Source: Dehalococcoidia bacterium
GTDB taxonomy: Bacteria; Chloroflexota; Dehalococcoidia; UBA2979
Length of the DNA stretch: 64,000 nucleotides
Reading direction: 5' to 3'
Assembly (NCBI GenBank): GCA_965219085.1
Contig: OZ244720.1
Coordinates: 128,001-192,000, forward strand
Below, piece after piece: positions 38,066 through 40,296 of the stretch. The position numbers and the translations under genes were made by a program. The first letter of the stretch is position 1, and every line of letters starts with the position of its first letter. Under the pieces are notes generated by a model. The model had not been told where the DNA came from. It did no database searches and saw only the letters and a program-made list of their open reading frames with translations.

Positions 38066-38289
38066 AGGTGTCGCTCCTAGGCGGGAAGTCCGAGGCGTCA
38101 AAACTGCACACCTGCTATACTTGTTGTGTCAAATACATGACGGATAGCAGGAAGTGTTCCCATTCCGGTAGAGAACCACGCTGACCCCACGCCCGATACG
38201 TGCGACATCTGCATGTATGCGGTCGAGCACCCGGGGACGGATCTTCGCTATGAGCGCGGGCTCGTCAATCTGGCAGGGGATCTCTAATG

Positions 38290-38490
38290 GGGCCCGACCA
38301 GCGGCCAGAGGTTCTCTGGCAGACTGGTTCTGGACCCTGCCAGCCGGTGAGCTCTCAGCTGATCCCTGCGGCTTCTGGACCGCTTCACGAAGACCGAGCC
38401 CCTGCTGGTATTCCGGGTTGTTCTGCAGCACTCATGGGGTGTCGTGCCATCGAGCACTGATCCATTAGGCCGTCGCAGGAACCAACCCGC
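38290..38490 (+). ncRNA. Predicted IS110 bridge RNA (boundaries approximate)
   Basis: Target loop guides GATCCCT / CACGAAGA and donor loop guides TGGGGTGTC / CCATTAG match target and donor junctions. Confidence 0.75.
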
Positions 38491-38535
38491 CGGGTCGCAC
38501 CGAGCAGCGCGAAGCGGGAGAGGAACTGAAACACG

Positions 38536-39759
38536 ATGGCCTTGTACCTGGGCGATGACTGGTCCGAAGACCACCACGACGTCCATCTCATGAACGACGC
38601 GGGCGAGCGGCTCGCCGCCCGGCGTCTGCCCGAAGGGGTGGAGGGCATCACTGCCCTGCACGGACTGGTCGCCGGGTACGCCTCAGGGCCGGGTGAGGTG
38701 ATCGTCGGCATCGAGACGGACCGCGGCCCCTGGGTCGCGGCACTGCTCGCGGCCGGCTACCACGTCTACGCCATCAACCCGCGCTCGGCGTCGCGTTACC
38801 GCGACCGCCACCACGTCGGCGGCGCCAAGTCCGACGCCGGCGACGCGAAGCTGCTCGCCGACCTCGTCCGCACCGACCGGCACAACCACCGGGAGGTCGC
38901 CGGCGACAGCGACGAAGCCGCCGCGGTGCGCATCCTCGCCCGCGCCCACCAGCAGTTGATCTGGGACCGCGTCCGCCAGACCAACCGGCTGCGCAACGCG
39001 CTCAGGGAGTACTTTCCGGGTGCGCTGGAGGCCTTCCCCGACCTCGCGCACGACGACGCGGTGGGCGTGCTGGCGACAGCGCCTGGCCCGCGCGAGGCGG
39101 CGCGGCTGAGCATCACCCAGATCCGCTCCGCGCTGCGCCGCGGCGGCCGCCGGCGCAACATCGAGCGGCGCGCCGCCGAGGTCCGCGACGCGCTGCGCTC
39201 ACCGCAGCTCGAGGCTCCGCCCGCGGTGAGCAAGGCATTCGCCGCGAGCACCAGTGCGGCAATGAGGGTGATCGGCGAGATCAACCGTCAGATCAAGGAG
39301 CTCGAGGCCGAGCTCGCGAGCCATTTTGAGCAGCACCCGGACGCCGGTATCTACCGTTCCCTGCCCGGTCTCGGCGTGGTCCTCGGCGCCCGGGTGCTTG
39401 GCGAGTTCGGGGATGACCCCGAACGCTACGAGTCGGCGAAGTCCCGCAGGAACTACGCCGGCACGTCGCCGCTGACGGTAGCATCCGGCCGCAAGCACAC
39501 CGTGAAAGCCCGCTTCGTCCGCAACCGGCGCCTCTACGACGCAGTCGACCAGTGGGCGCTGTGCTCCCTGCAGGCCAGCCCCGGCTGCCGCGAGTTCTAC
39601 GATCGGCGGCGCGCCGCGGGCGACCTCCACCACCAGGCGCTCCGCGCCCTCGGCAACCGTCTCGTCGGCTACCTACATGGCTGCCTGAAGCGCCGCTTGC
39701 CCTACGACGAGACGACCGCCTGGGGACACCGTTACACCCACGAGGACCTCGCTGCTTGA
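38536..39759 (+). CDS. IS110 DEDD recombinase/transposase
   Basis: LGDDWS, GIE, KSDAGDA; C-terminal SLPGLG..YAGTSP..ASG. Confidence 0.95.
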   Translation: MALYLGDDWSEDHHDVHLMNDAGERLAARRLPEGVEGITALHGLVAGYASGPGEVIVGIETDRGPWVAALLAAGYHVYAINPRSASRYRDRHHVGGAKSDAGDAKLLADLVRTDRHNHREVAGDSDEAAAVRILARAHQQLIWDRVRQTNRLRNALREYFPGALEAFPDLAHDDAVGVLATAPGPREAARLSITQIRSALRRGGRRRNIERRAAEVRDALRSPQLEAPPAVSKAFAASTSAAMRVIGEINRQIKELEAELASHFEQHPDAGIYRSLPGLGVVLGARVLGEFGDDPERYESAKSRRNYAGTSPLTVASGRKHTVKARFVRNRRLYDAVDQWALCSLQASPGCREFYDRRRAAGDLHHQALRALGNRLVGYLHGCLKRRLPYDETTAWGHRYTHEDLAA

Positions 39760-39954
39760 CCCCTTAGCGTCCTGGGGTGTCTTCGTGGATGGTCTCGCCA
39801 ATGCTGGAGACGAGCCGCTCATGCTCCGCTCGCTGGCAGTCAGCACTGTGGGCGTCGAGCCCGGCCCCGTGCATCGAATGGAGCCGCGGCACTGGTACTG
39901 GGCCATCTGGCATGAACGCGACGTAGTGTTGTCCCTGCGGAAGAGGTACAGACG

Positions 39955-40296
39955 ATGAAGGCCGGAGCAATGCTACGCGAAGCCTATCAGGAGTACCTCG
40001 AAGGCAAGCGCTCGCTCGATGAGGTGCTCGAGCTCGCAGAGCGGATGCGGGAGTCCATCCACGCCAGCCTGCCTCGTACCCCCGAGCCGACCCCCGAGGA
40101 GATCGAGGCCGAGGAGGCGGAGTGGGCACGGATGCGGGCGCGGAGCCGCGCGGCGCCGCTGTGGAAAGCCTACCAGCGCTACCTTGACGGCGAGTGCTCA
40201 CTCGATGACGTGCTCGACCTCGCCGACCGGATGCGCGCCGAGCGGCTCCGCGCCGACGTTCCCGCCGGCGAGGAGACTCAGCGCGTCTCGAACTGA
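39955..40296 (+). CDS. Hypothetical protein with internally duplicated helical motif
   Basis: AYQEYLEGKRSLDEVLELAERMR / AYQRYLDGECSLDDVLDLADRMR; GAGG RBS. Confidence 0.65.
   Translation: MKAGAMLREAYQEYLEGKRSLDEVLELAERMRESIHASLPRTPEPTPEEIEAEEAEWARMRARSRAAPLWKAYQRYLDGECSLDDVLDLADRMRAERLRADVPAGEETQRVSN

What the first reader, a model, noticed from the sequence alone, without database searches (positions are those of the whole stretch)
38284..39789. IS110 with a fully readable bridge RNA: all four guide segments match its own target and donor junctions
Seen: the reconstructed empty site is GGGATCT-CT-TCGTG and the circle junction is TGGGGTGT-CT-AATGG. In the left non-coding end, GATCCCT (38361-38367, 6/7 match to target-left plus core) and CACGAAGA (38386-38393, exact reverse complement of TCTTCGTG) flank a GCGG/CCGC hairpin. 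TGGGGTGTC (38435-38443, identical to the element right end) and CCATTAG (38462-38468, reverse complement of CTAATGG) flank a GTGC/GCAC hairpin. Established: IS110 bridge RNAs carry target- and donor-binding loops with this layout. Inference: this is a programmable bridge recombinase from a high-GC lineage, inserted at a site with one guide mismatch; the ideal target would be about GATCCCTTCGTG.
Basis: partly seen in the sequence, partly recalled or inferred. Interest (0 to 1): 0.85.

Follow-up and report, generated by a model that had tools for sequence, protein, structure and literature searches.

The report
IS110 element with bridge RNA
This is an intact, recently active IS110-type jumping gene whose built-in guide RNA can be read from the sequence; it normally lands inside another jumping gene's transposase, and the copy in this window sits at an off-target site.

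Summary
Window 38286-39780 is a 1,495-bp IS110-group element flanked by a CT core. It has a 250-nt left end, a 407-aa DEDD/Tnp recombinase and a 21-nt right end.

The left end holds a canonical bridge RNA: a 5' stem-loop, a target-binding loop and a donor-binding loop, with stems kept by compensatory changes in 20 homologues. Across 19 guide types (71 usable rows), target guides track their own flanks (0 of 20,000 permutations reach the observed match).

- The family's left target guide is 7 nt plus CT (CTGATCC-CT here).
- The genome has six near-identical copies. Five sit at CCGACCC-CT-TCGTG, which pairs 7/7 with two U:G wobbles, between codons 201 and 202 of an IS5-family transposase gene.
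- No unoccupied cognate site remains in this genome.
- The window copy matches only 4/7 on the left arm and 5/5 on the right. It is a "half-match" off-target insertion that splits a small conserved ORF.

This is a new member of a known kind. No RNA data exist for this organism.

The parts
38284..38285 (+). Left copy of the CT core dinucleotide
   Evidence: CT precedes AATGG in all six genomic copies and in the homologues whose left end was found.
38286..39780 (+). IS110-group insertion sequence, 1,495 bp
   Evidence: Six copies in the genome. Three are identical, two carry one extra G in the right-end G run, and one has +C and one G>A. The flanks are contiguous in a relative and in a contig of run X5.
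38286..38535 (+). Left non-coding end (250 nt) encoding the bridge RNA
   Evidence: The long left end and short right end are the IS110-group pattern described in PMC11208160 (passages).
38296..38329 (+). 5' stem-loop of the bridge RNA
   Evidence: 80.8% of cells are paired, against 11-52% when partners are slid, and 6 pairs have changes on both sides. The structure was derived from the window sequence, so this comparison is biased in its favour.
38339..38409 (+). Target-binding loop module: basal stem 38339-38354 with 38396-38409, and inner hairpin 38368-38383
   Evidence: Helix 1 has 14 pairs at 98.2% paired, 4 of them with compensatory changes. The inner hairpin has 4 pairs, 3 with compensatory changes.
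38359..38367 (+). Left target guide (LTG), CTGATCC + CT
   Evidence: Its aligned position covaries with the left flank in homologues. It pairs 7/7 with CCGACCC, using two U:G wobbles, at the five IS5 sites. It pairs 4/7 with GGGATCT at the window site.
38386..38392 (+). Right target guide (RTG), CACGA + AG, the reverse complement of CT-TCGTG
   Evidence: Matches the right flank 5/5 at all six copies and covaries in homologues.
38425..38473 (+). Donor-binding loop module: stem 38425-38432 with 38467-38473, and hairpin 38444-38457
   Evidence: The pairs are almost invariant across 20 homologues, so they neither support nor contradict the fold.
38435..38443 (+). Left donor guide (LDG), TGGGGTGTC, identical to the right end plus the first core base
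   Evidence: Chance of the 9-mer is 0.15%. The six rows with TGGGATGTC in the guide all have TGGGATGTCT at their right end.
38462..38468 (+). Right donor guide (RDG), CCATTAG, the reverse complement of CT-AATGG
   Evidence: Chance is 0.25%. Near-invariant in homologues.
38516..38523 (+). Purine-rich ribosome-binding-like site, GGGAGAGG
   Evidence: It lies 12 nt upstream of the ATG. This is an inference.
38536..39759 (+). IS110-family recombinase gene, 407 aa
   Evidence: PF01548 at 2.7e-37 and PF02371 at 4.1e-11. NF033542 at 191.6 bits against a cut-off of 140. The only solved relative is IS621. D8, E60, D100, D103 and S317-G318 are in place.
39756..39761 (+). TTGACC, a -35-like hexamer overlapping the stop codon. 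It would pair with a -10-like TCT|AAT that exists only when the right end is joined to the left end in a circle.
   Evidence: 77 of 78 elements with an identifiable right end have TTGACN 17-18 nt upstream of TCT|AAT. Junction promoters are described in PMC11208160 (passages). Its function here is an inference.
39760..39780 (+). Right non-coding end (21 nt)
39781..39782 (+). Right copy of the CT core
38213..38285 (+). 5' part (24 codons) of a small conserved ORF split by the insertion. The start codon is inferred.
   Evidence: The uninterrupted 80-aa ORF in relative L092 reads alike.
39783..39958 (+). 3' part (58 codons) of the split ORF. Its TGA overlaps the ATG of the 113-aa gene at 39955-40296.
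   Evidence: A 25-residue stretch, VSTVGVEPGPVHRMEPRHWYWAIWH, is identical to the relative's.

Best explanation
Window 38286-39780 is an intact, recently active insertion sequence of the IS110 group.

Inferred mechanism, by analogy with IS621 and ISPpu10:
1. The recombinase excises the element as a circle.
2. Joining the right end to the left end creates a promoter: TTGACC, an 18-nt spacer, then TCT|AAT.
3. This promoter transcribes a bridge RNA of roughly 180 nt from the left end.
4. The donor loop (LDG 38435-43, RDG 38462-68) pairs with the two strands of the circle junction TGGGGTGT-CT-AATGG.
5. The target loop (LTG 38359-67, RTG 38386-92) pairs with the two strands of a target shaped CYRAYCC-CT-TCGTG.
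6. A DEDD/Ser recombinase tetramer then exchanges strands at the CT core.

The cognate target in this genome is CCGACCC-CT-TCGTG, between codons 201 and 202 of an IS5-family transposase gene. All five such sites are occupied. The window copy is a sixth insertion at a site that matches the core and right arm fully and the left arm only 4/7. It is a natural off-target (half-match) event that split a small conserved ORF.

Shown: the anatomy, the copy set, target specificity, guide-flank covariation and conservation of RNA structure. Inferred: transcription, RNA-protein binding and catalysis.
For: Protein:
- PF01548 and PF02371 both match.
- The NCBIfam equivalog 'IS110 family RNA-guided transposase' scores above its cut-off.
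- The catalytic D/E/D/D and Ser-Gly align with IS621.

Copies and targets:
- There are 6 full-length copies at 100% identity by BLAST.
- 5 of the 6 sit at the same 14-nt target, which splits the IS5 transposase at residues 201/202.
- Their IS5 hosts are of three distinct forms, so there were at least three independent insertions.
- 0 unoccupied CYRAYCCCTTCGTG sites remain in the genome.
- 8 uninterrupted IS5-type sites found at 8 or fewer substitutions all differ in the guide-contacting bases and are empty.
- The uninterrupted cognate sequence exists in 4 same-genus genomes. In those and one further genome with near-matches, the best left-end match is 88%, in G013; that G013 copy, the only one read, carries other guides.

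Covariation, on 71 of 80 rows and 19 guide types:
- The left arm matches 5.15/7 for own pairs against 2.76 for swapped pairs.
- The right arm matches 4.63/5 against 2.05.
- 0 of 20,000 permutations reach the observed values.
- Target-guide columns are hypervariable (1.64 and 1.46 bits), while scaffold stems carry 0.23-0.36 bits and donor guides 0.10-0.17 bits.

Structure:
- 97.1% of cells are paired, against 30-54% when partners are slid.
- 8 pairs have compensatory changes.

Other:
- The junction-promoter motif is kept in 77 of 78 elements.
Against: - There is no RNA evidence from this organism. The two metatranscriptome runs that touch the left end hold contigs about 93% alike, from a related element with other LTG letters. 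Both runs come from one study and could contain DNA.
- The single-sequence fold is no more stable than shuffles (z = -0.27).
- No Rfam family matched the left end.
- The left-arm match at the window site is weak: 4/7, with a mismatch next to the core. That position tolerated no mismatch in ISPpu10 (bioRxiv 10.64898/2026.03.19.712850, passages).
- 39 of 920 genomic N7-CTTCGTG sites match the guide at least as well by exact letters, and 215 do when wobbles are counted.
- Some homologue types fit poorly on the left arm: L055/L056 at 1/7 and L090 at 4/7. This may be a register error in my alignment.
- In two uninterrupted relatives the second core base at the window site is C, not T.
Confidence: 0.93

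Rival explanations
1. The internal matches to the ends and flanks are DNA-level features, such as sub-terminal recombinase-binding repeats, and no guide RNA is involved.
For: No RNA data exist for this organism. The donor-loop stems are invariant, so they carry no covariation signal. The single-sequence fold is unremarkable.
Against: The stems around the target loop keep pairing through 7 of their 18 pairs with changes on both sides, which only a folded single strand explains. The strand rule and core overlap match the solved IS621 mechanism. Target-side segments covary with flanking host DNA that is not part of the element.
Confidence: 0.03
2. The five IS5-embedded copies are not targeted insertions. 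They are one insertion followed by spread of the composite IS5::IS110, or by segmental duplication, so they say little about specificity.
For: L004, L005 and L006 have identical flanks over 300 nt on both sides. L004 and L005 share the extra G at the right end.
Against: L001, L002 and the L004-L006 group differ in their IS5 hosts: 5-6 and 11-15 mismatches within 100 nt, and different truncations of the transposase halves. The IS110 inserts, by contrast, are identical. That means at least three independent hits on the same 14 nt. Homologues with other guides hit other repeats just as precisely.
Confidence: 0.07
3. The window copy was inserted at a better-matching site, and the flank has mutated since. 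Alternatively it arrived by recombination between copies rather than by off-target bridge-RNA insertion.
For: The left arm matches only 4/7, with a core-adjacent mismatch (for ISPpu10 intolerance at that position). The relatives' core reads CC, so the site has changed in some lineage.
Against: The copy is letter-identical to two others, so the insertion is recent. Both junctions carry a clean CT and the flanks are contiguous in relatives. The relatives' left arms (GGGGATCT in X5, GGTGACCT in G007) are no closer to the guide. Insertion at sites matching the core and one arm is reported for IS621 (bioRxiv 10.64898/2026.08.31.748434, abstract and section 8).
Confidence: 0.1

Closest known systems
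IS621 (E. coli), the type bridge recombinase and bridge RNA (PMC11208160; PMC11208158)
   Same: Two-domain DEDD/Tnp recombinase with aligned catalytic residues. Bridge RNA in a long left end. A 5' stem-loop followed by target and donor internal loops. The 5' guide reads the bottom strand and the 3' guide the top strand. CT core included in all four pairings. Promoter rebuilt across the circle junction.
   Different: The protein relationship is distant (phmmer E 5.6e-8), and the protein is longer (407 aa against the 328-residue IS621 chain in the PDB). The genome is 69.8% G+C. The RTG has 5 non-core nt, against 4 stated for IS621. The natural target is a coding sequence of another IS, not a REP element.
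ISPpu10 (Pseudomonas putida), bioRxiv 10.64898/2026.03.19.712850 (listing abstract, and passages containing 'wobble')
   Same: IS110-group element with a bridge RNA. It has a U:G wobble at the LTG-LT interface, a junction promoter with -35 from the right end and -10 from the left end, and all insertions in copies of one repeat.
   Different: ISPpu10 targets an intergenic REP stem-loop and tolerates no mismatch next to the core. Here the cognate target is inside an IS5 transposase ORF, and the window copy carries a core-adjacent mismatch.
Homologous elements in Dehalococcoidia MAGs (L011-L079, L084, L087-L089), 67-86% protein identity
   Same: Same scaffold, same donor guides, same CT core and same junction-promoter motif.
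   Different: The target guides differ. Most relatives aim at a palindromic C-rich repeat (..CCCCCGCC-CT-CTCCC..). None of the 80 loci, and not the best-matching left end (G013) in the five same-genus genomes searched (the only one whose guides I read), carries the window's guide pair.
IS1111-group elements that target other mobile elements (IS4321/IS5075 into Tn21-family inverted repeats; attC-targeting members)
   Same: Members of the IS110 family whose fixed target lies inside another mobile element.
   Different: Those belong to the IS1111 group, with the RNA in a long right end and long sub-terminal inverted repeats. I saw them only as entries in the reference list of PMC11208160 and did not read those papers.

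Membership tests
IS110 family (IS110 group) bridge recombinase system | [quoted passage not shown] | tested here: met
   E 2.7e-37 over profile positions 2-155 of 155. D8, D100 and D103 align with IS621 D11, D102 and D105. E60 sits in the GIETD motif, which phmmer placed two residues off, so its equivalence is read by eye.
IS110 family (IS110 group) bridge recombinase system | C-terminal Tnp domain (PF02371) with the conserved catalytic serine | tested here: met
   E 4.1e-11. S317-G318 align with IS621 S241-G242.
IS110 family (IS110 group) bridge recombinase system | Curated family model for the whole protein | tested here: met
   NF033542 'IS110 family RNA-guided transposase', 191.6 bits against a cut-off of 140.
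IS110 family (IS110 group) bridge recombinase system | Long left end and short right end, no terminal inverted repeats, and a 2-nt core at both junctions | tested here: met
   The left end is 250 nt, the right end 21 nt, and CT is present at both junctions. The empty site is confirmed in relatives.
IS110 family (IS110 group) bridge recombinase system | Left-end RNA fold: a 5' stem-loop plus two stem-loops, each with an internal loop | tested here: met
   on 20 homologues. 97.1% of cells are paired and 8 pairs have compensatory changes. The donor-loop stems are invariant and therefore uninformative.
IS110 family (IS110 group) bridge recombinase system | Target-loop guides complementary to, and covarying with, the two strands of the target | tested here: met
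   19 guide types, with 0 of 20,000 permutations reaching the observed match. Five of the six genomic copies sit at a fully pairing site.
IS110 family (IS110 group) bridge recombinase system | Donor-loop guides complementary to the circle junction | tested here: met
   The G-to-A change in the LDG is matched by the right end in 6 of 6 rows. L090 is an exception with one mismatch.
IS110 family (IS110 group) bridge recombinase system | Promoter reconstituted across the RE-LE junction | tested here: met
   At motif level only. TTGACC, 18 nt, then TCT|AAT; the motif is kept in 77 of 78 elements. Promoter activity was not tested.
IS110 family (IS110 group) bridge recombinase system | The RNA is made, binds the recombinase and is required for recombination | not testable with these tools
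   Only contigs of a ~93%-alike element in two RNA libraries of one study were found.
IS110 family (IS110 group) bridge recombinase system | Match to a curated RNA family | tested here: inconclusive
   no Rfam 15 family hit the left end at E up to 10. I do not know whether Rfam 15 holds a bridge-RNA model.
IS1111 group of the IS110 family | Bridge (seek) RNA in a long right end, with sub-terminal inverted repeats of 7-17 bp | tested here: not met
   The right end is 21 nt, and the guides lie in the left end.

The most novel reading that the evidence does not exclude
Within one genus of high-G+C Dehalococcoidia, a nearly constant bridge-RNA scaffold has been naturally re-aimed by a few guide substitutions. 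The aim moved from a palindromic genomic repeat to the coding sequence of a competing IS5-family transposase. In this genome the re-aimed element has disrupted every cognate IS5 copy (5 of 5) and then, with no cognate site left, spilled over to a half-matching site in a host gene. That site may even have lacked a CT core, since two relatives read CC there. If so, this is a natural case of one insertion sequence disabling a rival subfamily, and an in-vivo record of how bridge-RNA specificity fails once targets are saturated.
Probability: 0.25. Interest if true: 0.55.

Novelty: new member of a known kind. Interest (0 to 1): 0.35.

Why it matters
It adds a well-documented, apparently active bridge recombinase from a high-G+C, uncultured lineage. 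My one full-text search for IS110 together with Dehalococcoidia found 0 papers.

The element comes with its own natural specificity experiment:
- five on-target copies;
- eight near-target sites left empty;
- one off-target copy;
- a set of close relatives that differ almost only in the guide letters.

That set could serve as a test bed for guide rules (U:G wobbles, arm length, core-adjacent mismatches) and for half-match off-target insertion. It does not change what is known about how IS110 elements work.

Tried and rejected
- Single-sequence folding of the left end gave z = -0.27 and an MFE fold that does not show the loops. I replaced it with the consensus fold.
- The Rfam scan gave nothing in the left end. 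Its only hit above threshold is Ms_AS-4, antisense inside the CDS.
- The diverged in-genome relative (L007/L010) was examined as a covariation partner. It was dropped because it has no recognisable left end and its frame is broken.
- I first read the interrupted host ORF on the minus strand. Comparison with the relative showed the plus-strand frame is the conserved one. Pfam and NCBIfam found no family for either half, or for the 113-aa neighbour, above their cut-offs.
- Ungapped flank comparison beyond about 300 nt is distorted by indels. I used only the 100-nt and 300-nt figures, plus tblastn.
- RNA runs X21 and X22 have contigs on 38284-38476 and on much of the CDS, and none on 38516-38592. 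They are contigs of one study, about 93% alike, and cannot show a transcript end. I draw no conclusion from the gap.
- A rU:dG excess at non-identical left-arm positions (0.37 for own pairs against 0.17 for swapped pairs) is suggestive only, because the rows are related.
- Structure prediction, complex prediction and the large protein searches were not run. The family assignment did not need them.
The ortholog and target tables of PMC11208160 might already list this clade, and I could not check.
Full report
WHAT IS THERE. The sequence shows an element from 38286 to 39780 bounded by CT on both sides. The left junction reads GGGGATCT-CT-AATGG and the right junction TGGGGTGT-CT-TCGTGG. Inside it are a 250-nt non-coding left end, one ORF at 38536-39759 (407 aa) and a 21-nt right end. 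The protein has both IS110 domains: PF01548 at 2.7e-37 and PF02371 at 4.1e-11. It passes NCBI's equivalog model 'IS110 family RNA-guided transposase' at 191.6 bits against a cut-off of 140. Its only solved relative is the IS621 recombinase (E 5.6e-8). In that alignment D8, D100 and D103 fall on IS621's D11, D102 and D105, and S317-G318 on S241-G242. E60 sits in a GIETD motif that phmmer placed two residues off. The IS621 residues are taken from passages of PMC11208158, and the window positions.

CHECK OF THE OBSERVATION. I tested chance on 200,000 first-order Markov sequences of 250 nt.
- The right-target, left-donor and right-donor guide motifs occur in 2.0%, 0.15% and 0.25% of sequences.
- The left-target 7-mer with one mismatch occurs in 31%, and three times in the real left end, so that match means nothing on its own.
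- All four in the observed order and spacing occurred in 0 of 200,000.
The layout is the published one. [quoted passage not shown]

OTHER COPIES. The window lies in a 3.31-Mb single-contig genome of 69.8% G+C. A search with the element gave 8 matches: 6 full-length copies, one diverged relative (83% over the CDS) and one 25-nt fragment. Of the six copies, three are identical, two have one extra G in the right-end G run, and one has +C and one G>A.

The five copies outside the window all sit at ..GTCTGCCCCGACCC-CT-TCGTGTACAGCC... This repeat is the coding sequence of an IS5-family transposase (DUF772 + DDE_Tnp_1; NF033581). tblastn places the break between residues 201 and 202 in all five, with the IS110 antisense to the transposase gene. 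The IS5 hosts are of three forms. L002 has both halves whole, L001 has a truncated C-terminal half, and L004-L006 have a short N-terminal match. They show 5-6 and 11-15 mismatches within 100 nt of the junctions between forms, while the inserts are identical. The same 14 nt was therefore hit at least three times independently.

A fuzzy search for the empty site (8 or fewer substitutions in 50 nt) found 8 uninterrupted relatives in this genome. All have 5-7 differences. Seven read GCTCCCT-TTGTG at the guide-contacting bases, and none is occupied. No unoccupied CYRAYCCCTTCGTG is left in the genome.

In the genus (19 genomes searched, including the window's own), the uninterrupted cognate 19-mer occurs exactly in 4 genomes: 10 times in G012, 3 in G004, and once each in G015 and G013. 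It occurs with one mismatch in others, including one CCGATCCCT.. site in G004. In the five genomes searched with the left end (G012, G004, G017, G013, G015), the best match is 88%, in G013. I read the guides of that G013 copy only, and they differ.

HOMOLOGUES AND COVARIATION. A scan of one genome per species found 251 relatives. The best 80 were kept, at 66-86% protein identity. Most are in Dehalococcoidia MAGs, with a few in Actinomycetota. I aligned the 300 nt upstream of each start codon and read the guides at the columns of the window's guides. I read the flanks next to the conserved CTAATGG and TGGGGTGTCT ends.

Of 81 sequences (the window plus 80 loci), L073 lacks its 5' part and was not tabulated. 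Of the 80 rows tabulated, 9 were dropped before counting:
- L038 and L052: no recognisable left end.
- L063, L087 and L088: right end not found by the motif.
- L080-L083: flanks cut by contig ends.

The 71 remaining rows fall into 19 guide types.
- Own-pair matches average 5.15 of 7 on the left arm and 4.63 of 5 on the right.
- Swapped pairs average 2.76 and 2.05.
- 0 of 20,000 permutations of types reach the observed sums.
- Misfits are L055/L056 (left arm 1/7, possibly a register error of my alignment), L090 (4/7) and the window row itself (4/7).
This sets the family's left guide at 7 nt plus CT and the right guide at 5 nt plus AG.

The window's left guide is CTGATCC-CT. It pairs with the IS5 site CCGACCC-CT at 5/7 by identity and 7/7 if U in the RNA may face G in the bottom strand. 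U:G wobbles at this interface are reported for ISPpu10 and IS621 (bioRxiv 10.64898/2026.03.19.712850, passages). At non-identical left-arm positions rU:dG makes up 0.37 in own pairs against 0.17 in swapped pairs, which is suggestive only.

Donor guides hardly vary. Where the left donor guide reads TGGGATGTC (6 rows), the right end reads TGGGATGTCT in all 6.

Column entropy fits a fixed scaffold with exchangeable target guides (Mann-Whitney p = 2e-7 for target guides against the rest):
- 1.64 and 1.46 bits in the target guides;
- 0.23-0.36 bits in the stems;
- 0.10-0.17 bits in the donor guides.

RNA STRUCTURE. The single-sequence fold is uninformative (z = -0.27). On 20 distinct homologues, RNAalifold predicts two modules. 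In the first, a long stem encloses an internal loop with the two target guides either side of a 4-bp hairpin. In the second, a stem encloses the donor guides either side of a GTGC/GCAC hairpin. I omitted two doubtful RNAalifold helices (columns 3-6 with 239-242, and 179-181 with 209-211) before counting. On the remaining 31 pairs, 97.1% of cells are paired against 30-54% with partners slid, 8 pairs have changes on both sides, and 0 of 500 shuffles reach the covariation score. The donor-module stems never vary, so they say nothing either way. The 5' stem-loop (38296-38329) is kept in 80.8% of cells against 11-52% slid. It was derived from the window sequence, which favours it. Rfam 15 gave no hit in the left end.

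JUNCTION PROMOTER. The right end carries TTGACC (39756-39761, overlapping the stop codon). Eighteen nt on, the last right-end base plus the core plus the first three left-end bases would spell TCT|AAT, but only in a circle. Of 81 elements, 78 had an identifiable right end, and 77 of those have TTGACN at 17 or 18 nt from that hexamer. This matches the reconstituted promoter described for IS621 and ISPpu10. Its activity here is inferred.

THE WINDOW COPY. Its right arm is perfect (TCGTG). Its left arm GGGATCT matches the guide at 4 of 7, with a C-A clash next to the core.

Among 920 genomic N7-CTTCGTG sites (six of which are the copies' own right junctions), 39 match the left guide at least as well by identity, and 215 do when wobbles are counted. 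One 12-mer identical to the window's empty site stays unoccupied at genome position 2987402. So the site was not chosen for its left arm. It fits the 'half-match' class (core plus one arm) reported as a common off-target route for IS621 (bioRxiv 10.64898/2026.08.31.748434, abstract and section 8).

The flanks are contiguous in a same-genus genome (L092). They are also contiguous in one 481-nt DNA contig of run X5, which joins 38284 to 39783 with one C between. In both, the second core base is C. Either the window's lineage gained the T before insertion, or a CC site was used and both junctions were resolved to the donor's CT. I cannot tell which.

The insertion splits a small plus-strand ORF of about 82 aa. 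It reads MYAVEHPGTDLRYERGLVNLAGDL | F | VDGLANAG..RKRYRR. It is conserved in the relative and its stop overlaps the start of the 113-aa gene at 39955-40296. No Pfam or NCBIfam family passed a cut-off for either protein.

EXPRESSION. 22 runs were listed as holding at least a small part of the stretch, and four were laid. X1 holds both occupied junctions. X5 holds the empty site in a relative about 97% alike. The two metatranscriptome runs come from one study and hold contigs about 93% alike on 38284-38476 and on the CDS. Their letter differences and gaps fall in the left target guide (38360, 38362, 38367), so they come from a sister element. They do not show transcription of this element.

VERDICT. 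The element is a new member of a known kind, not a new kind. Bridge RNAs were predicted in 85.7% of catalogued IS110s (PMC11208160, passage). The points worth keeping are:
- the natural on-target, near-target and off-target set in one genome;
- the IS5 transposase ORF as cognate target;
- saturation of that target;
- the panel of sister elements that differ almost only in guide letters.

Noticed in passing
window 39360-39441 (-): The Rfam family Ms_AS-4 (Actinobacteria sRNA, RF02464) matches at 63.9 bits against a gathering score of 50, antisense inside the recombinase CDS. The match covers the conserved Tnp-domain coding region. It may only reflect CDS conservation with the mycobacterial IS from which the family was built, or it may be a real antisense RNA against the transposase mRNA.
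   Followed up: no
L010 3100-4720 (G000:C1:893100-894720): A degenerate sister IS110, 83% alike over the CDS. Its frame is broken (310-aa and 167-aa ORFs) and it has no bridge-RNA left end. Upstream there is instead a ~76-nt sequence repeated twice in tandem. It lies about 600 bp from an unoccupied IS5 copy of the non-cognate subfamily.
   Followed up: partly
window 39955-40296 (+) and the split ORF 38213-38285 / 39783-39958: A translationally coupled pair (overlapping ATGA) of small genes without any family match, conserved in the genus. The 113-aa protein is an internal duplication of a motif like REAYQEYLEGKRSLDEVLxLAxRMR. The pair sits downstream of an IMPDH-like gene in the relative, an impression from its printed translation only.
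   Followed up: partly
L016-L022, L033-L058, L064-L079 flanks: Most sister elements sit in one C-rich palindromic repeat (..CCCCTCACCCCCGCC-CT-CTCCCGCnAGGGGAGAGGGnGCCGGA..) that is present many times per Dehalococcoidia genome. It is a REP-like element of this lineage, used as the landing pad.
   Followed up: no
G000:C1:1204132 and 3276652 (copies L005, L004): Two copies have five Gs instead of four in the right-end G run, with identical IS5 flanks. This is either a shared origin by duplication of the composite, or a homopolymer error of the assembly.
   Followed up: no
L080-L083 (Smaragdicoccus niigatensis DSM 44881), L085, L086, L090: The same bridge-RNA scaffold, with the donor guide changed to TGGGATGTC and a longer 5' stem-loop, occurs in Actinomycetota at 66-69% protein identity. 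The clade therefore spans two phyla.
   Followed up: no
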